A stretch of 64,000 bases of DNA from positions 65,079 to 129,078 of the forward strand of contig JAHIDZ010000015.1 of assembly GCA_018901755.1 (NCBI GenBank), written 5' to 3'. The stretch is from Nanobdellota archaeon. GTDB taxonomy: Archaea; Aenigmatarchaeota; Aenigmatarchaeia; Aenigmatarchaeales; Aenigmatarchaeaceae. How positions within the stretch are numbered: position 1 is the stretch's first letter; the number at the start of each line of letters is the position of its first letter. Below are positions 3,611-59,922 of this stretch, piece by piece. A model generated the notes under the pieces. That model was not told the origin of the DNA and did not search any database. It saw nothing but the letters and a program-made list of their open reading frames with translations. The position numbers and the translations under genes are program-made.

Positions 3611-3820
3611 ATGGCACAAGAACCAGTTCCAGCTGAAGTAGTTCAGTGTTTAGGAAGAACAGGAATAAAGGGAGTTAATCAAGTTAGATGTAAAGTTCTT
3701 GAAGGAAAGGATACTGGAAAGATACTTGTTAGAAACGTTTTAGGTCCTATTAGAAAAGGAGACATACTGGTACTTAGAGAAACTGAAATGGAACACGCTG
3801 GTACAATGGAGTTGAGATAA
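3611..3820 (+). CDS. rps28e: 30S ribosomal protein S28e
   Basis: [46 protein letters not shown] matches eS28. Confidence 0.9.
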
Positions 3821-4450
3821 ATGAAATGTGAGATAGATGTTAGGAGAGAAGACGATATCGGTTATACACTAGGTGTTATTGCTGGTGATGGGTTTATTGG
3901 AAAGAATACAGAAACGACAAGAATGATTATGCTATCTGTAAAAGATAAAGAATTTTGTGATAATTTTTCAAATAGTTTGTTTAATATATGCGGCCGAAAA
4001 TATAAGGTTAGTAGGGTTAATAATTATAGATATAGACAAGGTTATTGCTGGGTAACAAGATGTTGTATTCGACAAGTAGTTAACTTTTTTGAAAATTATG
4101 ATATTTATCAATTATCAGAAAATACAGATAAGATCAAGCTAGGTTTCTTAAGAGGTATGTTTGATGCAGAAGGTTGTAGCTTTTGTAAGCTTTATCCTAA
4201 AAGAGGAGGTTATTCAAGAACGGTTGCTGTTTTTAATAAAAATAAAAAATTACTTAATCTGTGTCAAGAATTATTGAATTCTTTCGAAATAAAAACAAGA
4301 AAATTTTCTAAAGATAAGGATGGTGTATATGCACTTCACCTGAGTCTTTCAAAAGAAAATCTAACGAAATTTAGGGATTTGATAAATTTTTCAATCCCGC
4401 GCAAAATTTCAAACTTGGAAACATGCTTAGAGAGTTATACGGGTGGTTAA
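3821..4450 (+). CDS. free-standing LAGLIDADG homing endonuclease-like protein
   Basis: Two LAGLIDADG motifs (LGVIAGDGFIG and LRGMFDAEGCS). The ATG abuts the S28e stop and the 3' end overlaps the L24e start. Confidence 0.8.
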   Translation: MKCEIDVRREDDIGYTLGVIAGDGFIGKNTETTRMIMLSVKDKEFCDNFSNSLFNICGRKYKVSRVNNYRYRQGYCWVTRCCIRQVVNFFENYDIYQLSENTDKIKLGFLRGMFDAEGCSFCKLYPKRGGYSRTVAVFNKNKKLLNLCQELLNSFEIKTRKFSKDKDGVYALHLSLSKENLTKFRDLINFSIPRKISNLETCLESYTGG

Positions 4451-4619
4451 TATCAAATGTAGCTTTTGCACTAAAGAATTAGAAAAAGGAACAGGTAAAA
4501 TGTACATAAAAACAGATTCAAAAATATTTTATTTTTGTTCGAGAAGATGCGAGAAAAACATGTTTAAATTAGGACGTGATCCTCTTAGAGTAAAATGGAT
4601 CACTAAAAAGAAAAAATAG
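4443..4619 (+). CDS. rpl24e: 50S ribosomal protein L24e (start assigned to GTG)
   Basis: My own translation from the GTG at 4443 is VVNIKCSFCTKELEKGTGKMYIKTDSKIFYFCSRRCEKNMFKLGRDPLRVKWITKKKK. It shows the L24e zinc-ribbon signature C-x2-C...C-x3-C plus KMYV-like and VKW motifs. The ORF is missing from the track because it is under 60 aa and lacks an ATG start. Confidence 0.72.
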   Translation: MVNIKCSFCTKELEKGTGKMYIKTDSKIFYFCSRRCEKNMFKLGRDPLRVKWITKKKK

Positions 4620-51792: not shown

Positions 51793-53796
51793 GTGCATTT
51801 TATGGAAATGGAGAAATTTGAAGAGTTTTTCAGGCAATTTTATGAGAAAGATTTAATGGCAGCAGCAGCGCTCGGAGAAAAGTCAATACTAGTTGATTTT
51901 TCTCTTTTAGATAAATTTGATCCTATACTTGCTGATAAACTTTTGAATGATCCAGACGAGATTATAGAACAGGCTAGATTGGCAATACGAAATATAGATT
52001 TGCCAGAAGGTTCTATAAAGATTGAACCACGATTTTTGAATTTTCCACAACAGCAGAATATTAGAATTAGGAATTTGCGTTCAGAACATATTGGTAAATT
52101 TATGTCTATCGATGGTATAGTAAGACTGGCTTCTGAGGTTTTGCCACAAATTGAATGTGGTGTTTATGAGTGTATGGATTGTGGATATAAGACGGAAGTT
52201 AAACCAACAGATAAAATGTTAGCTCCACCTATGTCGTGTGATAAGTGTAATAGACGTGGGAGATTCGATCTTGTTTCTAAAAAACTTTATGATTTTAGAA
52301 TGATAAAAATCGAAGAACCGTTTGAAATCGCAAGTGGTGAAAAATCATGTCAGCTTCGAGTATTTTTAAAAGAAGATTTAACGTCTCCAGAACTTCAGAG
52401 AAAACATGATCCCGGAAATAGACTGAGAATAAATGGTATTCTTCGTGAACAGAAAAGAATAACAAAAGGAAAAATGAGTACAACTCTTGAATTGTTCCTT
52501 GATGCAAATAACATAGAAGCTACAGAAATAGAATGGGACGAAGTTGATGTTAATGATGCTGATGTAAAAAAGATTAAAGAATTATCTGTAGATCCACTAG
52601 TGTTTAGAAAAATAGTTAATTCAATCGCGCCGTCAATTTATGGACTTGATAGAATTAAAGAAGCAATTGCTTTACAAATGTTTAGTGGTGTGCCACACGT
52701 GCTTAATGATGGTGTTAGAATAAGAGGAGATATTCATGTTCTATTACTTGGTGATCCGTCAACTGCAAAATCTCAAATATTAAAATTAATTTCAAAAGTT
52801 ATGCCACGTGGAAAATATGTCAGTGGTAAAGGGTCAAGTGCTGCAGGTTTGACAGCTACTGTTGTTAAGGACGAAGAACTAACTGGTGGTTGGATATTAG
52901 AAGCAGGTGCAATGGTTCTTGCTAATAAATCTTTAATTTCTATTGATGAGTTTGATAAAATTGCTAAAGAAGATATGGTAGCACTTCACGAAGCAATGTC
53001 AATACAGACCATTTCTATCGCGAAAGCATCTATAATAGCAACACTACCGGCACAGGTTTCTGTTTTAGCTGGTGCAAATCCTAAATTATCGAGATTTGAT
53101 AAATTCAAACCAGTATCTCAACAAACAGATATACCTGAAACAATTTTGTCTAGATTTGATTTGAAATTTGTTTTAAAAGATATACCAGATAAGGACATGG
53201 ATCGAAGACTTGCAGATCACATTGTTTCTACTAGATTAAATCCTGAAACAACAGTACCAGAACTGGGTTCTGGTTTCATAAGAAAATATGTTGCCTATGC
53301 TAGAAAATATTGCAAACCTGAAATGACAAAAGAATCTGCAAATAAAATGGCACAATTTTATGTTGACATGCGTGCTAAATCTACACCCGATTCATTAGCA
53401 ATTACACTTAGACAGAATGAAGCTTTAATGAGATTGGCTGAAGCATCTGCTAAAATCAGATTATCTCCTACAGTTGAAGTACAGGATGCAGATAGAGCCA
53501 TTAGTATAATGGAATATTCTATAAATGAACTTGGTTATGATGCTGAGACGGGAAAAATTGATATTGATAGAATGAATGAAAAAACATCATCGACTCAACG
53601 AGCAAAGATACACACAATACTTGATATTATTGAAATGCTTGGTAAGAAAATAGGAATACCTACACCAAGAGAAGAAATAATTGCTGCGGCTGAAGATAGA
53701 GGAATATCTACAAAAGATGTAGAAGAATTATTATTTAGATTAAAGAAAGAAGGATTTACATTTGAACCAAAACCTAATTTTATACAAAAGATATGA
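51793..53796 (+). CDS. mcm: MCM replicative helicase, no intein
   Basis: Zinc finger C-x2-C...C-x2-C, Walker A (LLLGDPSTAKSQ), Walker B (IDEFDK), arginine finger (SRFDL) and a C-terminal wH. Confidence 0.92.
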   Translation: MHFMEMEKFEEFFRQFYEKDLMAAAALGEKSILVDFSLLDKFDPILADKLLNDPDEIIEQARLAIRNIDLPEGSIKIEPRFLNFPQQQNIRIRNLRSEHIGKFMSIDGIVRLASEVLPQIECGVYECMDCGYKTEVKPTDKMLAPPMSCDKCNRRGRFDLVSKKLYDFRMIKIEEPFEIASGEKSCQLRVFLKEDLTSPELQRKHDPGNRLRINGILREQKRITKGKMSTTLELFLDANNIEATEIEWDEVDVNDADVKKIKELSVDPLVFRKIVNSIAPSIYGLDRIKEAIALQMFSGVPHVLNDGVRIRGDIHVLLLGDPSTAKSQILKLISKVMPRGKYVSGKGSSAAGLTATVVKDEELTGGWILEAGAMVLANKSLISIDEFDKIAKEDMVALHEAMSIQTISIAKASIIATLPAQVSVLAGANPKLSRFDKFKPVSQQTDIPETILSRFDLKFVLKDIPDKDMDRRLADHIVSTRLNPETTVPELGSGFIRKYVAYARKYCKPEMTKESANKMAQFYVDMRAKSTPDSLAITLRQNEALMRLAEASAKIRLSPTVEVQDADRAISIMEYSINELGYDAETGKIDIDRMNEKTSSTQRAKIHTILDIIEMLGKKIGIPTPREEIIAAAEDRGISTKDVEELLFRLKKEGFTFEPKPNFIQKI

Positions 53797-54540: not shown

Positions 54541-54942
54541 ATGAATTACGAAGAACTATTGAATAAAGCATTTGATAAGCTTCCTAAGATTAAGGATTCT
54601 GGAGAAAGATTTGAGATACCTAAAATAGATTTGATGATTGAAGGAAGCACTACAATAATAAAGAATTTTGTTCAAGTGTCAAATACTCTTAGAAGAGAAC
54701 CAGAGCATATGCTAAAGTTTCTTACAAAAGAACTAGCAGCACCTGGTGCAATAAAACAACAAAGAGCTGTTTTTACAGCTAGATTAACACCAAACGCTGT
54801 ACAGCAAAAATTAGAATTATATGTTAGAGATTATGTTATTTGTAAAGAATGTAAAAGACCAGATACGAAATTAGTCAAAGAAAATAGAATAACTATTTTG
54901 ACTTGTGAAGCATGCGGAGCAAAATATGGTGTTAAAGGATGA
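54541..54942 (+). CDS. eif2b: translation initiation factor 2 subunit beta (aIF-2 beta)
   Basis: C-terminal C4 zinc ribbon CKECKRPDT...CEACG. Conserved central helix (TIIKNF...EHMLKFL). Confidence 0.85.
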   Translation: MNYEELLNKAFDKLPKIKDSGERFEIPKIDLMIEGSTTIIKNFVQVSNTLRREPEHMLKFLTKELAAPGAIKQQRAVFTARLTPNAVQQKLELYVRDYVICKECKRPDTKLVKENRITILTCEACGAKYGVKG

Positions 54943-55304
54943 AGGGTCAATTTTTTATAATATCAACAGTAATAATGATTTCTGCACTTATTTTGATAAT
55001 GAATTATCTTTATGATTATGGTAAAGTTGATTTAAGCAACGTCGAAAAGATGCAGGAATTAAATTATATCGGTGATGTGAAAAATAGTTTAATGCAAACA
55101 TTGCAAATATCATGTGCTAATTCTCAGAATCCAGAAATGAATCTTGTTCTTTCGGAGAAGAATCTTAAAGAAAGATTATTAGAACGTGGTATAGTTCTTG
55201 AAGTGGCTCATACTAATGTAGGATGCAACCCAGAACCAGTAGGAGATATTACTTTTAAGATTAAATCAAATACTTTTTCTATAGAAAATAGTTTTTCAGT
55301 CTAA
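54939..55304 (+). CDS. small secreted/membrane protein with a possible class III (type IV pilin-like) signal peptide
   Basis: MKG|QFFIISTVIMISALILIM: a short basic leader, Gly, then Gln followed by a hydrophobic helix. Confidence 0.35.
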   Translation: MKGQFFIISTVIMISALILIMNYLYDYGKVDLSNVEKMQELNYIGDVKNSLMQTLQISCANSQNPEMNLVLSEKNLKERLLERGIVLEVAHTNVGCNPEPVGDITFKIKSNTFSIENSFSV

Positions 55305-56384
55305 GCCCGTTATTATTTTAAGATATGGCAGTTGAGTTTTTATGCACCTTTTTGAGCAATGCAACTCTTGCGCTAATTTACCATGTGTTTCATTATTTTC
55401 AGCTCTATCTTCTTTGCTTTTACCGAGTATCATGATTTTTTCTGGAGGCTTATATGGTGTGTATGAATTGTCTTTTCTTATTAGTGTCATAGATACCATC
55501 ATGTTTTTCATATATAATAACATTCTGTAGTTTTTTCCAACATAAACTTTTTCTCTAAACATATCTGCTTTACTAAGTATATCAAATGCGAATGCAATTT
55601 CTTCAGGTTTTTTATATTCGTTTGTAATATTTTGTTCCATCCACCAAAAGATTTCTTCAATATCTTTATCACAAGAATCAATTGCTTTTGAGGCATCATT
55701 GAGACTATTAGATTTGAATATTATTCTAATAGCTTCGAAAATGTTTATACCTCTTTCTCTGAATCCAATTATTTCAGTATGTGTTACTTTTTTTCTATTA
55801 GTTATTATTATTTGTAGATCATTTATTGCAGATCTTAAATCTCCGCCAGAACTTTCTGCTATTCTTACAATTATATCATTGTCTACTTCTACACCTTCTT
55901 TAGCACATATTTCTCTTAGTTTTTTACCAATTGATAATGTTCCAATTCTTCTAAATTGAATTAATGTGCAGTAGCCTCTTAATGTTCTGAGACCTTTATC
56001 ATATGCATCGTTAGCAGTAAGTATTACAGGAAATTTGCTGGTTTTAATAAGATTTATTATTTCAGTAACAGTTCCTTTGTCAGTATAATTATCAATTTCA
56101 TCTACAACTATTATTCTTTTTGCACCAAGCAGAGACATCATTGTTGAAGATGATTTTATTTTTTTTACTTCTTCTATTTCAGATGCGTGAACTTCGGTTA
56201 TATTTATTTTATTATCAATTGATATTACCTGTGATATAATTGTTTTTCCAATACCAGGTGCACCATAAAGAAGAATCGCTTTTCCAGTTTTGAATGTTTT
56301 AATATATTCTACAATATTTGCCAAAGCTGTAGAATTTCCAACAATGTCTGATACTTTTTTTGGTTTATATCTGTTTACTAACAT
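55296..56384 (-). CDS. rfcL: replication factor C large subunit
   Basis: NRYKPKKVSDIVGN, Walker A GAPGIGKT, Walker B VVDEID and SRC-like region. The start overlaps the stop of the upstream LAGLIDADG gene by 7 nt. Confidence 0.8.
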   Translation of the reverse strand: MLVNRYKPKKVSDIVGNSTALANIVEYIKTFKTGKAILLYGAPGIGKTIISQVISIDNKINITEVHASEIEEVKKIKSSSTMMSLLGAKRIIVVDEIDNYTDKGTVTEIINLIKTSKFPVILTANDAYDKGLRTLRGYCTLIQFRRIGTLSIGKKLREICAKEGVEVDNDIIVRIAESSGGDLRSAINDLQIIITNRKKVTHTEIIGFRERGINIFEAIRIIFKSNSLNDASKAIDSCDKDIEEIFWWMEQNITNEYKKPEEIAFAFDILSKADMFREKVYVGKNYRMLLYMKNMMVSMTLIRKDNSYTPYKPPEKIMILGKSKEDRAENNETHGKLAQELHCSKRCIKTQLPYLKIITGLD

Positions 56385-57373
56385 CGTGATACCCCTACTA
56401 TTGCTCTCATATTATTTGCTCTTTTAATACGGTTTGGATGTTGCAATGGCGTATTGTTTAAAAATGTAGGAATAGAATCAACCTTTAAAGAAAAATCGTA
56501 TGTGATACCAAATTCCTTTACCCTTGTAGATATCTTTCCAGATTGCATATTCAAGCGTTCGGTAAATAATTTTAATTCTTCTAGAAACATTCTGTCTGCT
56601 TGGGCGAATATAATTTTTTTATCGGGTTCATATATACAACCATCGGCATCGAAAAACCCTGCGATAAAGGCATTTTTGATTTCTTTTGAACCATTATATA
56701 TAATATCCGGTATTTTTAGTTGTCCTTTCTTTTTACCCATTGGTATACCGCATATTTTATTAAGAAAAATAAACAACACCTTAGACTGTATGTAAATTTC
56801 AAAGCATTTGGAATTTGTTTTATATATATTAGCTTTCAAATCAAATTGATTATTGATAAATTTGTTGAATTTATTAGCAAATTTTACCGTGTCTGAAGCT
56901 ATTTCAATCATGTATTTGAAATTTCCAGTTCTCATTTTTGGTTTCCATATATCTACAAGACAACCATCACCTATGATATAACCGATAATGTATGACAGTT
57001 CTTCTGTAATTTCTTTTGGAAGTTTTACTATTTTACCCTTAGCCACAGAAAAATACTCATTTTCTTTGAATGCAGATTCAATTATTTTGTTTTTTTCATC
57101 TTCTGATTTTCTGCAAACTCCTTTCCAAATATTTATTAGTTGAAAGAATTTCGATATGGGTATTGGTGAAGTTCCGTTAATCCAATTTGAAACTGTTCTC
57201 CTCGGAACGCCAAAAGACATCGTTGTAAGTTTAATAATTCCCTTCCCATGCTCCTTCTTTATTTCAGAATATAAATTTTTAGTTATGTTACTTATATCAC
57301 ACATTCTAATTTCATCATTTCTATCGTAATTAGACAAAACCATAAAATAGTTTGGGATTTTAATAATTATCAC
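56378..57373 (-). CDS. HTH fused to a LAGLIDADG homing endonuclease-like domain; GTG start
   Basis: N-terminal HTH-like region (GVPRRTVSNWINGTSPIPISKFFQLI). LAGLIDADG motifs IIGYIIGDGCLV and FIAGFFDADGCIY. It sits between rfcS and rfcL. Confidence 0.8.
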   Translation of the reverse strand: MIIIKIPNYFMVLSNYDRNDEIRMCDISNITKNLYSEIKKEHGKGIIKLTTMSFGVPRRTVSNWINGTSPIPISKFFQLINIWKGVCRKSEDEKNKIIESAFKENEYFSVAKGKIVKLPKEITEELSYIIGYIIGDGCLVDIWKPKMRTGNFKYMIEIASDTVKFANKFNKFINNQFDLKANIYKTNSKCFEIYIQSKVLFIFLNKICGIPMGKKKGQLKIPDIIYNGSKEIKNAFIAGFFDADGCIYEPDKKIIFAQADRMFLEELKLFTERLNMQSGKISTRVKEFGITYDFSLKVDSIPTFLNNTPLQHPNRIKRANNMRAIVGVSRC

Positions 57374-57377
57374 CTAG

Positions 57378-58346
57378 TTATTCCTTTCTGAACAGTGCAA
57401 ATTGTGCAAGCAAACTTTCCAACTGTATTTGTTCATTACCACCTTGGTTGATTCTGAATTCAAATTCTCCAACCTTTTCAATAAGATTTACTTTTTCTTT
57501 TTCTGTTAAATCGATACTGTATATTTGCTGCATTATCTGTTTTATTATATCTTGCCCACAAATTCCATCTTTTAAAATCATATTATTTAAAATTTTTCTT
57601 GCTTCTAAGAAATTTCCTTTTAATGAAATTTCAAGCATATTTTTTACTTCTTTTGGCTCTGCGATTGAAGCTACATCATATATGGCTTTCTCGGTGATAT
57701 TTTTAGTATTAATTGCGGCAGTTTGAAGAATGTTTATTGCTTTTCTAATATCACCTTCAGATAATTTGCATATTGCATCTATTGCATCTGAATCTGCACT
57801 TACCTTTTCCATTCCGATTATCAGATCGAGCCGTTTCTTTATACTTTCATCTGAAATTGTTTTAAATCTAAAAACACAGCATCTAGACTGCAATGGTTCT
57901 ATTATTTTTGAAGAATAATTGCATGATAGGAAGAATCTGCACGAATTACTATAGCTTTCCATTGTTCTTCTTAGTGCATTTTGCGCGTCAGCTGTTAGTG
58001 CATCTGCTTCATCTAGAAATATTATTTTATACGGTATGTTTCCGACAGATTTTGTTCTTGCGAAATCTTTTACTTTTGATCTAATTACGTTAATTCCTCT
58101 TTCATCTGAAGAATTAAGTTCAAGGAAGTTCTGTCTCCAGTTGCTTCCAAATAGCTTTTTTGCTATTATTATTGATATTGTTGATTTACCACACCCGGCA
58201 GGTCCTGCGAACATTAGATGTGGGATTTGTCGAGAATCAACAAAAGCTGAGATTCTTTCAATTATGTTTTCTTGCCCAACAACATCTGAAAATTCAGTTG
58301 GTCTGTACTTTTCGGTCCATATTTGATATTCAGTCATAGTAATCAT
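57378..58346 (-). CDS. rfcS: replication factor C small subunit, no intein
   Basis: WTEKYRP, Walker A GPAGCGKST, DEAD-like FLDEADALT, and SRC motif (SRC in LQSRCCVFRF). Confidence 0.92.
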   Translation of the reverse strand: MITMTEYQIWTEKYRPTEFSDVVGQENIIERISAFVDSRQIPHLMFAGPAGCGKSTISIIIAKKLFGSNWRQNFLELNSSDERGINVIRSKVKDFARTKSVGNIPYKIIFLDEADALTADAQNALRRTMESYSNSCRFFLSCNYSSKIIEPLQSRCCVFRFKTISDESIKKRLDLIIGMEKVSADSDAIDAICKLSEGDIRKAINILQTAAINTKNITEKAIYDVASIAEPKEVKNMLEISLKGNFLEARKILNNMILKDGICGQDIIKQIMQQIYSIDLTEKEKVNLIEKVGEFEFRINQGGNEQIQLESLLAQFALFRKE

Positions 58347-58374
58347 CTATATATTTATAAGCAAACAATTTAAA

Positions 58375-59922
58375 ATGATATGTATGATTAAACAATTTAT
58401 ATTAGTGATTATGCTTGTTTCTATGTTTTCATTCTCAGTATACGCTCAGATTGATAATCCGTATACTATAGATTATCTTAAAGTTGATATTATACAGACC
58501 GGCGAGATAGACACAACTGGTAGAGTCGAGGATATGGAACTTACGCTATCAATACCACAAAATGATCAATATCAGAAGGTTGAAAACATCGAATCAAATG
58601 TTAATTATACCGAATACTATGACGATATTGGCAATAAATATTTGAAATTAAAATGGATTAAGCCAGAAGTTGTTAATAAGTTTAGAGTTAAAACAACAGT
58701 CACTATAAATCGAAGAAATACTATGGATGTAGAAAAATTTCCAGAATTCATAGATTCAACACAATTAGTTGATTATGATACAAATGATATTGATGTTCTG
58801 TCGAAGACATTTAGAGGCAATGATATAGATAAAATATTTTCTGTAGCTACATGGGTAAATAAAAACATAAAATATGATATGGAATATGCACAAGTGAATA
58901 TGTCAGCTTCTTGGGTTTTAGAAAATAGAAAAGGTGTTTGTGATGAAATTACAACATTGTTTGTCGCGCTTACTAGGAGCATGGGGTATTATTCACCATA
59001 TATAGCTGGTTATGCTTATTCGAAGGATGCTAATTCAATGGATGGTTTTGTAGCACATGGTTGGGCAGAGGTGAACGGAATACCCGTTGATGTCACATGG
59101 TCACAGGGTGGATTTTTAGATGCTACACATATTAAATTTGCAAAATTGGCAGATTCATCATATACACAGGCTTCTTTGAATGCAAGAGGTCTTGGTAGTT
59201 TTAAAGTAGATCTTAAAGATATTACAACAGAGATAACCACTGTTGAAAACACTGAAAGTTTGATTATTGGTTCTACATCTTCGCTTCTTGATGATATTGT
59301 ATACAAAGGATATGTCGTTGTTAAGAGTGATGTTACATCTGATAGATGTGTATTAACAAAATTGAAAGTTCAGGGATGTATTGATAGTAGTGGAGAAAAT
59401 GTCATGAGAAATACAGAAAATAATGATGCTTTCTATTTTTGCAATCAGAGGAAAGTCTTTTCTATACTTGAATTGTTAGATGAAGGAAACGCACTTGGAT
59501 TGTACAAATGTCCGATTGTTGTTTTGCCTTATGGTGGTGAAACTGAAACCGTTTCTGTGAAAGTTTCTTTTGAGAATGAGAAGAAAGTCGATCTATCTAC
59601 TGATAAAACTAATCTTGCTGCGGGAGAAGAATATAGTGTTTATGCAAAGGATAGTTACATATTTACAAGTAATGGTGATTTTGCATATCAGAAATCACAA
59701 TTTATAGCACCACATAATGATTTTATTTTATATGGATATAATTCAGGAACACTTGTTTCGGAAAATATGCATGTGACAGATACTAATTCTATTTTAATTG
59801 AAACAGAAGTATCCCAGCCCGATATTGAAATTATTGTCGAAAAGCCTGAAGATGTAAGTATCGGATTTTTCTCTATGATTTTTAATATGTTCAGCAACTT
59901 GTTCAAAGGGTTGAGTATATGA
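58375..59922 (+). CDS. secreted transglutaminase-like (papain-fold Cys-His-Asp) domain protein with a C-terminal hydrophobic anchor
   Basis: Signal peptide. RKGVCDEITTLFVALTRSMG ... HGWAEV is the transglutaminase core. Confidence 0.68.
   Translation: MICMIKQFILVIMLVSMFSFSVYAQIDNPYTIDYLKVDIIQTGEIDTTGRVEDMELTLSIPQNDQYQKVENIESNVNYTEYYDDIGNKYLKLKWIKPEVVNKFRVKTTVTINRRNTMDVEKFPEFIDSTQLVDYDTNDIDVLSKTFRGNDIDKIFSVATWVNKNIKYDMEYAQVNMSASWVLENRKGVCDEITTLFVALTRSMGYYSPYIAGYAYSKDANSMDGFVAHGWAEVNGIPVDVTWSQGGFLDATHIKFAKLADSSYTQASLNARGLGSFKVDLKDITTEITTVENTESLIIGSTSSLLDDIVYKGYVVVKSDVTSDRCVLTKLKVQGCIDSSGENVMRNTENNDAFYFCNQRKVFSILELLDEGNALGLYKCPIVVLPYGGETETVSVKVSFENEKKVDLSTDKTNLAAGEEYSVYAKDSYIFTSNGDFAYQKSQFIAPHNDFILYGYNSGTLVSENMHVTDTNSILIETEVSQPDIEIIVEKPEDVSIGFFSMIFNMFSNLFKGLSI

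What the first reader, a model, noticed from the sequence alone, without database searches (positions are those of the whole stretch)
55296..58346. LAGLIDADG gene wedged between RFC small and large subunit genes with overlapping translation signals
Archaeal rfcS is a classic intein host. Here rfcS and mcm are intein-free, but a free-standing HTH-LAGLIDADG ORF (GTG start, 331 aa) sits exactly between rfcS and rfcL. It starts 5 nt after the rfcS stop, and its TAG stop overlaps codons 2-3 of rfcL (..CGATGTTAG..). Its 3' end overlaps the start of the downstream host gene in the same way as the L24e case. This pattern would let the element ride on operon transcription with minimal polar effect. It may be a degenerate or freed intein endonuclease, or an independent operon-invading element.
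Basis: partly seen in the sequence, partly recalled or inferred. Interest (0 to 1): 0.7.

Follow-up and report, generated by a model that had tools for sequence, protein, structure and literature searches.

The report
Mobile homing-endonuclease gene splitting the RFC operon
A selfish, probably still active LAGLIDADG homing-endonuclease gene has inserted exactly between the two clamp-loader genes (rfcS, rfcL) of a DPANN archaeon; the same gene family sits at this junction in at least ten archaeal lineages but is missing from this organism's closest relatives.

Summary
On the minus strand lie rfcS (58346..57378), a 331-codon ORF (57373..56378) and rfcL (56384..55296). A 4-nt gap separates rfcS from the ORF, and the ORF overlaps rfcL by 7 nt (ATGTTAG).

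The ORF encodes an N-terminal XRE-like helix-turn-helix domain plus a monomeric double-LAGLIDADG nuclease. The acidic residue that closes each LAGLIDADG motif is conserved.

It is a free-standing, site-specific homing endonuclease gene:
- The three closest relatives (rfcL 90, 78 and 58% identical, same synteny) have an empty site: rfcS stop, 4 nt, rfcL ATG.
- Homologues only 35-52% identical sit next to rfcS and/or rfcL in nine other sequence-distinct loci, always co-oriented.
- In hosts with higher GC, the gene is compositionally foreign (GC3 0.16-0.29 against 0.36-0.53).
- It is under purifying selection (dN/dS about 0.15).
- It has no Hint domain, terminal repeats or intron.

It is no closer to RFC inteins than to other LAGLIDADG domains. 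Its closest intein relatives are the HTH+LAGLIDADG modules of MCM inteins. A sister subfamily sits directly upstream of uppS.

This is a new variant of a known kind (intergenic homing) and of moderate interest. Cleavage, target site and expression were not tested.

The parts
57378..58346 (-). rfcS (replication factor C small subunit), 322 aa, no intein. This is the upstream host gene.
   Evidence: NF001679 at 469 bits, model positions 3-319 of 322; Pfam Rep_fac_C and AAA.
57374..57377 (-). 4-nt spacer CTAG between the rfcS TAA stop and the GTG of the endonuclease ORF.
   Evidence: Direct reading. Empty sites in relatives also have a 4-nt spacer between the rfcS stop and the rfcL ATG.
57369..57375 (-). 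AGGTGAT, a Shine-Dalgarno-like motif that contains the putative GTG start.
   Evidence: GGTGAT placed 3-5 nt before ATG recurs upstream of other genes in the window.
56378..57373 (-). Free-standing HTH-LAGLIDADG homing endonuclease ORF. It has 331 codons from GTG; stop is TAG at 56378-56380.
   Evidence: LAGLIDADG_3 at E=4e-14. Profile matches PI-PfuI at 3e-19 and I-DmoI at 5e-15. Model pLDDT 94.3. Foldseek TM about 0.8 to I-DmoI.
57362..57364 (-). In-frame ATT at the position where family members start. It is an alternative, weak initiation codon 4 nt after GGTGAT.
   Evidence: Family N-termini are MKLKNYL and MKFPNYL, against window (I)KIPNYF. This is an inference.
57059..57301 (-). N-terminal helical domain (residues about 25-105) with an XRE / lambda-repressor-like helix-turn-helix fold. 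The HTH core is residues 53-80 (57134-57217).
   Evidence: N-terminal model pLDDT 87. All top Foldseek hits are C-proteins, lambda cI, HipB or SinR, with E 0.1-1 and TMt 0.6-0.68. Pfam HTH_3 E=0.019, below threshold. In one MCM-intein relative (P0276) a Pfam HTH_3 match (whole-protein E=2e-7, no single stretch passing 1e-5) falls inside the region that aligns with this family.
56963..56998 (-). LAGLIDADG motif 1 (LSYIIGYIIGDG, residues 126-137), with catalytic Asp136.
   Evidence: D136 is invariant in 18 family members. It aligns with the GDG of I-DmoI and PI-PfuI. Coordinates.
56708..56737 (-). Conserved Lys-rich loop GKKKGQLKIP (residues 213-222).
   Evidence: G213 and P222 are invariant; K215 is conserved in at least 90% of members.
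56639..56671 (-). LAGLIDADG motif 2 (AFIAGFFDADG, residues 235-245), with catalytic Asp244.
   Evidence: D244 is conserved in at least 90% of members. The exception, P0016, has G-A-E-G, which I read as a shifted acidic residue. It aligns with the E/D of motif 2 in I-DmoI and PI-PfuI.
56391..56396 (-). AGGGGT, a Shine-Dalgarno-like motif for rfcL. It lies inside the last codons of the endonuclease ORF, 6 nt before the rfcL ATG.
   Evidence: Direct reading. In empty sites the equivalent motif, AAGTGAT, contains the rfcS stop codon. This is an inference.
56378..56384 (-). ATGTTAG: 7-nt overlap of the endonuclease TAG stop with rfcL codons 1-3.
   Evidence: Direct reading.
55296..56384 (-). rfcL (replication factor C large subunit), 362 aa. 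This is the downstream host gene.
   Evidence: NF003229 at 316 bits. Orthologues 90, 78 and 58% identical lie in relatives with empty sites.

Best explanation
The ORF is a free-standing LAGLIDADG homing endonuclease gene (HEG). It belongs to a family specialised on the junction between rfcS and rfcL.

Shown here:
- It encodes a monomeric double-LAGLIDADG nuclease with both catalytic acidic residues, plus an N-terminal helix-turn-helix-like domain.
- It occupies a site that is empty in the closest relatives.
- Distant homologues occupy the same junction in other archaeal lineages.
- The family evolves under purifying selection and looks compositionally foreign in its higher-GC hosts.

Inferred mechanism:
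1. When an HEG-bearing chromosome and an HEG-less chromosome meet in one cell, the enzyme cleaves the intact rfcS-stop/rfcL-start junction of the empty allele.
2. Homologous repair then copies the HEG into the break. This is intronless, intergenic homing, as described for phage T4 free-standing endonucleases.
3. The nuclease core probably reads the junction. The HTH domain may add contacts to nearby conserved 5' coding sequence of rfcL, or may autoregulate expression.

The gene lies just outside both reading frames, in the same orientation, so it needs no splicing. It is probably co-transcribed with the operon. Its 5' end takes over the translation-initiation position right after the rfcS stop. 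Its 3' end supplies a new Shine-Dalgarno-like motif and overlaps the rfcL start, which would limit polar damage to an essential operon.
For: Identity of the protein:
- LAGLIDADG_3 at E=4e-14.
- The PDB profile matches PI-PfuI, the TliVMA intein endonuclease and I-DmoI.
- The model has pLDDT 94.3, and Foldseek gives TM about 0.8 to I-DmoI.
- D136 and D244 are conserved across the family.

Empty sites in the closest relatives:
- L170, L171/L172 and L173 have rfcL 90, 78 and 58% identical to the window's.
- They share the mcm / OB-fold / aIF2-beta / small ORF / rfcL / rfcS synteny.
- Each reads rfcS TGA, 4 nt, rfcL ATG, with no endonuclease gene.
- A second pair behaves the same way: L092 is occupied and L010 is empty, with rfcL 71% identical.
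- In an rfcL tree, occupied and empty alleles are interleaved.

Same site in distant hosts:
- Nine of nine homologues with known context from the 35-52% identity group lie next to rfcS and/or rfcL, all co-oriented (window, L001, L002, L004, L006, L092, L174, L176, L008). L098 adds a partial copy.
- rfcS-rfcL adjacency with gaps of -17 to 126 nt is widespread in other archaea, including Thermococcus, Nanohaloarchaea, Woesearchaeota, Pacearchaeota and Aenigmatarchaeota.

Mobility and function:
- Endonuclease GC3 is 0.16-0.29, against flanking rfcS/rfcL GC3 of 0.36-0.53, in six hosts.
- Synonymous difference (pS) in the endonuclease gene is 0.52-0.64. In the flanking rfcS and rfcL of the same genome pairs it is 0.80-0.87.
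- dN/dS is 0.14-0.17.
- The endonuclease and rfcL trees are partly incongruent.

Other element types excluded:
- No Hint or intein-splicing hit at E<=10.
- No terminal inverted or direct repeats at the borders.
- No Rfam intron or other RNA family above threshold.

Family lifestyle:
- A sister subfamily (32-33% identical, same N-terminal motif) sits directly upstream of, and overlaps, the start of uppS in three contigs.
- At least 88 free-standing clusters at 50% identity share the full architecture.
Against: - No cleavage activity, target site or transcript was tested.
- The window copy lacks an ATG at the family's start position (GTG or ATT), so its expression may be weak or absent.
- The nearest sampled homologue is only 52% identical, so no donor is identified.
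- Between the window and L170 (about 85% nt identity) there is no clear co-conversion tract. The two occupied/empty pairs give opposite local identity patterns at the rfcL 5' end.
- The lower synonymous divergence of the endonuclease genes could partly reflect their shared AT-rich third positions.
- Trees are neighbour-joining on few sequences.
- The HTH assignment rests on sub-threshold sequence hits and weak fold-search hits.
- One clade (L001, L002, L004, L006) is occupied in every sampled member, so some vertical persistence is likely.
Confidence: 0.8

Rival explanations
1. Domesticated LAGLIDADG protein. In this reading it is a WhiA-like DNA-binding regulator or replication accessory factor, kept by the host in the rfc operon for its own benefit.
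For: - It has an HTH domain plus a LAGLIDADG scaffold, as in WhiA. Pfam LAGLIDADG_WhiA scores 21.1 bits and WhiA structures appear among the fold hits.
- It is under strong purifying selection.
- Its operon position and orientation are conserved in about ten lineages.
- One clade is occupied in every sampled member.
Against: - It is absent from the three closest relatives, which have otherwise identical synteny, and from L010.
- Both catalytic acidic residues are retained across the family, unlike WhiA.
- The WhiA Pfam score is below its cut-off (23.2), and the HTH is N-terminal rather than C-terminal.
- GC3 is foreign in higher-GC hosts.
- Relatives sit at unrelated loci: uppS and the fibrillarin operon.
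Confidence: 0.08
2. Escaped or decaying remnant of an RFC intein. In this reading the endonuclease domain of an rfcS intein was released into the intergenic space.
For: - rfcS is a known intein host. rfcS carries an intein in L006 and L092, next to this gene.
- NCBIfam matches fall only in the intein parts of host proteins.
- At family level the whole HTH+LAGLIDADG module is homologous to the endonuclease module of MCM inteins.
Against: - Similarity to RFC-intein endonuclease domains is the weakest among the intein models (E=2.4e-4).
- Pairwise identity is 21% to the L092 RFC intein and covers the nuclease core only.
- No Hint blocks remain.
- The gene is not degenerate.
- The intein-embedded relatives are in MCM, not RFC. 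They form one clade outside the free-standing radiation, so any intein/free-standing transition was ancient and not local to this locus.
Confidence: 0.05
3. Inactive relic. In this reading it was once a homing endonuclease gene but is now silent or catalytically dead in this genome, and persists only because deleting it would harm rfcL expression.
For: - There is no ATG at the canonical start position, only GTG inside an SD-like motif, or ATT.
- rfcL's SD-like motif and start now lie inside or overlap the ORF, so precise loss would be needed to restore the operon.
- The homing cycle (invasion, fixation, decay, loss) predicts decay after fixation. This is established knowledge, summarised in PMC13619312.
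Against: - The 331-codon frame is intact in an AT-rich genome where stop codons arise easily.
- All family-invariant residues are present in the window copy, which is the reference sequence for the invariant columns.
- The predicted structure is very confident.
- The insertion looks relatively recent, because it is absent from a relative whose rfcL is 90% identical.
Confidence: 0.07

Closest known systems
Free-standing homing endonuclease genes of phage T4 (seg and mob genes; intronless or intergenic homing)
   Same: The gene sits between conserved genes rather than inside an intron or intein. Presence/absence polymorphism occurs at a fixed intergenic site between related genomes. The nuclease is fused to a separate DNA-binding domain. 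The general principle that free-standing HEGs are limited to intergenic targets is stated in PMC13619312; T4 mobE is described in PMC2790892 (abstract only).
   Different: The T4 enzymes are GIY-YIG or HNH nucleases in a virus. This one is a LAGLIDADG enzyme in a cellular archaeal chromosome, inside an essential replication operon, with junctions tight enough to overlap the downstream start codon.
I-DmoI and other archaeal monomeric LAGLIDADG endonucleases (I-Tsp061I; rRNA-intron encoded)
   Same: They share the two-motif monomeric fold (Foldseek TM about 0.8; profile E=5e-15) and an acidic residue at the end of each motif.
   Different: Those enzymes are about 180-200 aa, lack an N-terminal HTH domain and are encoded inside rRNA introns. 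This protein is 331 aa and free-standing between protein-coding genes.
Endonuclease modules of archaeal inteins: PI-PfuI, the TliVMA intein and, closest, MCM inteins at the AAGL/TA site
   Same: These are the best sequence and structure matches (PI-PfuI 3e-19; TliVMA 7e-12 by Foldseek). MCM-intein modules align over nearly the whole protein, N-terminal domain included: profile positions 14-326, 127-179 bits, and pairwise BLAST over residues 5-329 at 26-27% identity.
   Different: There is no Hint splicing domain and no Cys/Ser...His-Asn junction residues. The gene has its own start and stop codons outside any host reading frame.
Free-standing LAGLIDADG ORFs of fungal mitochondria and green-algal chloroplasts
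   Same: They are stand-alone LAGLIDADG genes in intergenic positions (papers found: PMC4524492, PMC5630911, PMC11328819).
   Different: Those are organellar and belong to other LAGLIDADG subfamilies. No HTH fusion is known to me for them; this rests on my own knowledge and was not tested here.
WhiA (bacterial transcription factor derived from a LAGLIDADG scaffold plus an HTH)
   Same: It combines a LAGLIDADG fold with an HTH domain and appears among the fold hits (8dy7_I, E=1e-7).
   Different: WhiA has lost the catalytic residues and carries its HTH at the C-terminus. Here the acidic residues are conserved and the HTH is N-terminal. The Pfam WhiA score is below its cut-off.

Membership tests
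LAGLIDADG homing endonuclease (monomeric, two-motif; Pfam LAGLIDADG_3) | Two LAGLIDADG motifs in one chain | tested here: met
   LSYIIGYIIGDG (residues 126-137) and AFIAGFFDADG (residues 235-245). LAGLIDADG_3 E=4e-14, with 2 stretches at permissive threshold.
LAGLIDADG homing endonuclease (monomeric, two-motif; Pfam LAGLIDADG_3) | Conserved acidic residue at the end of each motif (metal-binding active site) | tested here: met
   D136 is invariant. D244 is conserved in at least 90% of members across 18 family sequences. Both align with the corresponding residues of I-DmoI and PI-PfuI.
LAGLIDADG homing endonuclease (monomeric, two-motif; Pfam LAGLIDADG_3) | Pseudo-symmetric alpha-beta-beta-alpha-beta-beta-alpha fold, twice | tested here: met
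   AlphaFold model pLDDT 94.3. Foldseek against I-DmoI gives TMt 0.75-0.81 and rmsd about 3 A; the TliVMA intein endonuclease gives E=7e-12. This is a predicted structure, not a solved one.
LAGLIDADG homing endonuclease (monomeric, two-motif; Pfam LAGLIDADG_3) | Site-specific double-strand cleavage of a long (about 20 bp) target | not testable with these tools
   Needs a biochemical assay on the empty-junction DNA of L170, L171 or L173.
Mobile homing endonuclease gene (homing behaviour) | Presence/absence polymorphism at one fixed site between related genomes, with a precise empty site | tested here: met
   The window is occupied; L170, L171 and L173 are empty (stop, 4 nt, ATG). L092 is occupied and L010 is empty.
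Mobile homing endonuclease gene (homing behaviour) | Horizontal spread: gene history differs from host history | tested here: met
   The GC3 contrast holds in six hosts. Endonuclease pS is lower than pS of both flanking genes. The trees are partly incongruent. The evidence is moderate: few taxa and neighbour-joining trees.
Mobile homing endonuclease gene (homing behaviour) | Co-conversion of flanking markers around the insertion | tested here: inconclusive
   Window against L170: no clear tract. The last rfcS codons and the first 60 nt of rfcL are slightly more diverged (75% against 85%). L092 against L010 shows the opposite, 92% against 73%.
Intein (Hint domain with nested endonuclease) | Hint splicing domain (blocks A, B, F, G) in frame within a host protein | tested here: not met
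   No Intein_splicing or Hint hit even at E<=10. The ORF has its own start and stop between two complete host genes.
WhiA-like domesticated LAGLIDADG regulators | Loss of catalytic residues, a C-terminal HTH, and vertical conservation | tested here: not met
   Catalytic Asp residues are retained. The HTH is N-terminal. PF14527 scores 21.1, below its cut-off of 23.2. The gene is absent from the closest relatives.
Insertion sequence / transposon | Transposase gene, terminal inverted repeats, target-site duplication | tested here: not met
   No repeats at the borders 56378/57377. The only domains are HTH-like and LAGLIDADG.
Intron-encoded endonuclease (group I/II or archaeal bulge-helix-bulge intron) | Surrounding self-splicing or spliceable RNA structure | tested here: not met
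   Rfam at E<=1 over 55000-58600 gives only one antisense hit below the gathering threshold: cyano-S1, 29.1 bits against 39.9. The element lies between ORFs, not within one. Bulge-helix-bulge motifs were not searched for specifically.
XRE / lambda-repressor-like HTH domain (Pfam HTH_3), for the N-terminal 110 residues | Five-helix HTH fold and a profile match above threshold | tested here: inconclusive
   Pfam HTH_3 gives E=0.019 at 15.4 bits, below its cut-off of 23. All fold hits are XRE-type, but with E 0.1-1, probability up to 0.98 and TMt 0.6-0.68. In the homologous MCM-intein module of P0276, HTH_3 gives whole-protein E=2e-7 at 31.3 bits at the corresponding position, with no single stretch passing 1e-5.

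The most novel reading that the evidence does not exclude
This locus may be the visible tip of an undescribed, large class of archaeal chromosomal 'operon-junction' homing elements: an HTH+double-LAGLIDADG cassette with at least 88 free-standing clusters at 50% identity.

In this reading the cassette parks immediately upstream of essential genes whose 5' ends encode ultra-conserved motifs (rfcL, uppS). It takes over the upstream translation-initiation position and supplies replacement translation signals to the downstream gene.

The same cassette also occurs nested in MCM inteins at the AAGL/TA site. That would make it a living free-standing counterpart of an intein endonuclease module. It would make directly testable the long-standing idea that inteins acquired their endonucleases by HEG invasion, or the reverse, that the modules escaped.
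Probability: 0.35. Interest if true: 0.7.

Novelty: new variant of a known kind. Interest (0 to 1): 0.55.

Why it matters
Homing endonucleases are usually discussed as passengers of introns and inteins, or as free-standing genes of phages and organelles. Here a free-standing LAGLIDADG gene family homes into a cellular archaeal chromosome, at the junction of the two clamp-loader genes.

- RFC is the same replication machinery that inteins favour. This shows a second way for selfish nucleases to exploit highly conserved replication genes without needing to splice.
- The family offers natural occupied/empty allele pairs for defining new long-target nucleases.
- It is a marker of gene flow among co-resident DPANN archaea. 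Several divergent copies come from JGI metagenome contigs whose identifiers fall in one numeric series (Ga0315280-Ga0315294). I did not check the sample metadata.
- Through its full-length homology to MCM-intein endonuclease modules, it gives concrete material for testing how inteins and endonucleases became associated.
- It also matters for annotation. The gene is labelled 'hypothetical protein', and its start is mis-called in the public record.

Tried and rejected
1. **rfcS as a query for close relatives.** rfcS searched against GTDB genomes is too conserved: the best 80 hits, all at 50-57% identity, came from all over the Archaea. It was useful only for showing how widespread rfcS-rfcL adjacency is. 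The close relatives came from the rfcL protein search instead.
2. **Endonuclease alignment against metagenome and viral contigs**. The scan pattern was only LAGLIDADG motif 2, so most loci are generic LAGLIDADG genes. No viral relative carries the N-terminal domain, so a viral vector is not indicated.
3. **N-terminal domain alone as a protein query.** It found nothing, a limit of the word-based search.
4. **Exact insertion breakpoints by global alignment of occupied and empty alleles.** This failed because the short AT-rich junction segments align spuriously. Breakpoints can only be placed between the last few codons of rfcS and the rfcL ATG.
5. **Co-conversion tract test.** Inconclusive.
6. 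**22-nt direct repeat** between rfcL codons 3-9 and endonuclease residues 140-146 (family D1, 77% identical). I judged it a chance match or convergent coding of V-x-x-x-K-P-K, because that endonuclease stretch is conserved across the family.
7. **Rfam hit to the cyano-S1 leader.** It is antisense to the endonuclease gene, below the gathering score and from the wrong phylum, so I rejected it.
8. **Kinship with the window's second LAGLIDADG ORF** (3821-4450) and with the mcm-adjacent one in L001. Only generic domain similarity (E=0.015 and 8e-7); neither has the N-terminal domain.
9. **Literature searches**. No paper in the held library describes a free-standing LAGLIDADG gene at the rfcS/rfcL junction or in DPANN archaea. 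The held library is incomplete.

Full report
**1. What is in the sequence**

All three genes lie on the minus strand of window 55296-58346.

| Gene | Coordinates | Length | Main evidence |
|---|---|---|---|
| rfcS | 58346..57378 | 322 aa | NF001679, 469 bits, model covered end to end, so no intein |
| endonuclease ORF | 57373..56378 | 331 codons | Pfam LAGLIDADG_3, E=4e-14 |
| rfcL | 56384..55296 | 362 aa | NF003229, 316 bits |

The rfcS TAA stop is followed by CTAG and then GTG. The ORF ends CGA-TGT-TAG, and the TAG overlaps rfcL codons 2-3 (ATG-TTA-GTA). The window has 31.7% GC, so a 331-codon open frame is not a chance feature.

**2. The start codon**

In this window GGTGAT followed 3-5 nt later by ATG is the usual ribosome-binding arrangement. 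Several 'GTG starts' listed mechanically are really that motif. The GTG of the endonuclease ORF lies inside AGGTGAT.

Four nt after that motif comes an in-frame ATT (57364-57362). It sits exactly where homologues start: MKLKNYL and MKFPNYL, against window (I)KIPNYF. The start is therefore either GTG, reached by termination-reinitiation coupling to rfcS, or a weak ATT.

NCBI's call at Met11 (321 aa) cuts off the conserved NY[LF] motif and is probably too short.

rfcL's own Shine-Dalgarno-like motif, AGGGGT, lies inside the last codons of the endonuclease ORF. In empty sites of relatives the equivalent motif, AAGTGAT, contains the rfcS stop codon.

**3. What the protein is**

- NCBIfam matches fall only in the intein segments of RtcB, VatA, RpoA'', PolII, IF2 and RFC models. 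The RFC model is the weakest.
- A profile built from 18 family members matches PI-PfuI (3e-19), the Thermococcus VMA intein endonuclease (about 1e-17) and I-DmoI (5e-15).
- The AlphaFold model is very confident (pLDDT 94.3, pTM 0.91).
- Residues about 108-326 superpose on I-DmoI (TMt about 0.8) and on intein endonuclease domains.
- Both LAGLIDADG motifs end in an acidic residue. D136 is invariant, and D244 is conserved in at least 90% of members.
- Residues 1-112, modelled separately (pLDDT 87), give only weak fold hits (E 0.1-1). All of them are XRE-type five-helix HTH domains: R-M controller proteins, lambda cI, HipB and SinR. Pfam HTH_3 is below threshold at E=0.019.
- No Hint or intein-splicing signal appears even at E<=10.
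- The borders carry no terminal repeats, and no RNA family scores above threshold.

**4. Relatives and their genomic context**

In 5.8 billion protein clusters only 18 homologues were found by the word-based search. The closest non-self hit is 52% identical.

Every member of the 35-52% identity group whose context could be read lies next to the RFC genes, always in the same orientation:

- L001, L002/L003 and L004/L005
- L006, where rfcS also carries an intein
- L092/L093, where rfcS also carries an intein
- L174/L175
- L176/L177, arranged as rfcS, endonuclease gene, two other genes, then rfcL
- L008, where the endonuclease gene overlaps rfcL by 14 nt and no rfcS lies upstream
- L098, arranged as endonuclease gene, an unknown 415-aa ORF, then rfcL

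Across Archaea, rfcS and rfcL are commonly adjacent, with a gap of -17 to 126 nt and mostly 0-10 nt.

**5. The decisive comparison**

Searching with rfcL found the organism's nearest relatives: P0020 (90%), P0021 (78%, labelled Aenigmarchaeota) and P0023 (58%).

Their contigs show the same gene order: mcm, OB-fold protein, aIF2-beta, small ORF, rfcL, rfcS. In each, however, the rfcS stop is followed by 4 nt and then the rfcL ATG, with no endonuclease gene.

A second pair behaves the same way. L092 is occupied and L010 is empty, with rfcL 71% identical. On an rfcL tree, occupied and empty alleles are interleaved. Gain in the window lineage is the parsimonious reading. The alternative is three precise losses, each restoring a 4-nt spacer.

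**6. Evidence for mobility and function**

- In six hosts whose rfc genes have GC3 of 0.36-0.53, the endonuclease gene has GC3 of 0.16-0.29. In the AT-rich window there is no contrast: 0.25 against 0.23 and 0.17.
- Among L001, L002 and L004, synonymous difference in the endonuclease gene is 0.52-0.64. Both flanking genes are saturated at 0.80-0.87.
- Identity at four-fold degenerate sites is 0.44-0.61, against 0.23-0.41 in the flanks.
- dN/dS is 0.14-0.17.
- The endonuclease and rfcL trees disagree in places. For example, the L092 endonuclease groups with the L001-L006 clade, while its rfcL groups with L010 and the window clade.

Together these results indicate a functional gene that moves between lineages. 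The co-conversion test was inconclusive.

**7. The wider family**

An exhaustive profile search found 166 cluster representatives at E<=1e-30. Of the 163 sequences analysed (the newly returned representatives plus the original 18 homologues), 96 cover the full architecture: 88 free-standing proteins of about 290-375 aa and 8 embedded in long proteins.

At least seven of those eight are MCM proteins with inteins; the host protein of the eighth, P0261, could not be identified. The matching module sits in the intein inserted between L353 and T354 of the window MCM numbering, at the AAGL/TA site. The match spans profile positions about 14-326, so it includes the N-terminal domain. Pairwise BLAST aligns window residues 5-329 at 26-27% identity, E=8e-16.

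These intein modules form one clade outside the free-standing radiation in a midpoint-rooted neighbour-joining tree. By contrast, RFC-intein endonuclease domains match only the nuclease core at 21-31% identity.

A sister free-standing subfamily (32-33% identical, same N-terminal NYL motif) lies directly upstream of, and overlaps, the start of uppS in three independent contigs. A more distant member follows the Nop56-fibrillarin operon.

**8. Interpretation**

The gene is a free-standing LAGLIDADG homing endonuclease gene specialised on the rfcS/rfcL junction.

- Shown: the fold and active-site residues, the occupied/empty polymorphism at one site, recurrence at that site in distant hosts, foreign composition, and purifying selection.
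- Inferred: cleavage of the empty junction and copying by homologous repair; co-transcription with the operon; takeover of the translation-initiation position after rfcS; supply of new translation signals to rfcL; and a role for the HTH domain in extended target recognition or autoregulation.

The main rivals each have low probability: a domesticated regulator, an escaped RFC-intein endonuclease, and an inactive relic. The reasons are listed with each rival.

**9. Novelty**

Intergenic homing by free-standing endonucleases is known from phage T4 (PMC2790892, PMC13619312). Free-standing LAGLIDADG ORFs are known from organelles.

In the searchable library I found no description of this family, of its rfc-junction specificity, or of LAGLIDADG elements in DPANN archaea. 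I rate it a new variant of a known kind, of moderate interest. It gains some extra value from the full-length link to MCM-intein endonuclease modules. That link bears on the question, raised in PMC6801210, of how free-standing endonucleases came to reside in inteins.

Noticed in passing
window 3821-4450 (+), with S28e at about 3612-3821 and L24e from about 4444: A second, unrelated free-standing LAGLIDADG_3 ORF (209 aa, no N-terminal HTH domain) sits between the S28e and L24e genes of the L7Ae-S28e-L24e operon. Its TAA stop overlaps the start region of L24e. BLAST against the rfc-junction endonuclease gives only E=0.015.
   Followed up: partly
window 4442-4455 and 57362-57375: At both endonuclease-associated junctions, an SD-like motif (GGTGGT or GGTGAT) is followed 4-5 nt later by ATC or ATT at the canonical N-terminus of the protein ((M)KCSFC for L24e, (M)KIPNYF for the endonuclease). 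This suggests either non-ATG initiation or GTG starts embedded in the SD motif. Several other mechanically listed 'GTG starts' in the window (650, 37491) are likewise SD motifs that precede an ATG.
   Followed up: partly
L095 1715-2719, L096 332-1372, L097 194-1300: A sister subfamily with the same HTH-LAGLIDADG architecture (32-33% identical) lies immediately upstream of uppS (cis-prenyltransferase, Pfam Prenyltransf) and overlaps its start in three independent metagenome contigs. This is a second target site for the family.
   Followed up: partly
proteins P0167, P0228, P0232, P0235, P0247, P0267, P0276 (MCM, 1375-2398 aa): These MCM proteins carry 2-4 inteins. The intein at the AAGL/TA site (window MCM L353/T354) holds an endonuclease module that aligns with the free-standing family over its whole length, N-terminal domain included.
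   Followed up: partly
L001 5858-6004; L002 5791-5997; L003 3895-4101: In one occupied clade a small ORF (48-68 aa, Pfam DUF6364) lies between rfcS and the endonuclease gene. The window has no such ORF.
   Followed up: no
L001 10078-10938 and 11059-12969: In a relative, another free-standing LAGLIDADG_3 ORF (286 aa) sits between mcm and the OB-fold gene, and that mcm carries an intein. The window has no insertion at the corresponding junction (53793-53796), where the two genes overlap by 4 nt.
   Followed up: no
L098 441-1688; L176 2037-4030: Extra genes lie between the endonuclease gene and rfcL in two lineages: an unknown 415-aa ORF with no Pfam hit, and an inositol-monophosphatase-family gene plus a 406-aa ORF. 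The junction has therefore been remodelled after, or independently of, endonuclease insertion.
   Followed up: no
window 54939-55304 (+): A conserved small ORF (121 aa, no Pfam hit) starts MKGQFFIIS followed by a hydrophobic stretch, which recalls an archaeal class III (pilin-like) signal peptide. It converges on rfcL and overlaps its 3' end by 9 nt. The same arrangement occurs in L170, L171 and L173.
   Followed up: no
loci L001, L003, L005, L092, L093 (JGI contigs Ga0315280 to Ga0315294): Four divergent rfc-junction endonuclease genes (52-76% identical to one another), in hosts with different rfc genes, come from JGI metagenome contigs whose identifiers fall in one numeric series. This would fit exchange among co-resident lineages, but I did not check the sample metadata.
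   Followed up: no
window 56696-56754 (+): A sub-threshold Rfam hit to the cyanobacterial S1 leader (29.1 bits against a gathering score of 39.9) lies antisense to the endonuclease gene. I regard it as a chance match.
   Followed up: yes
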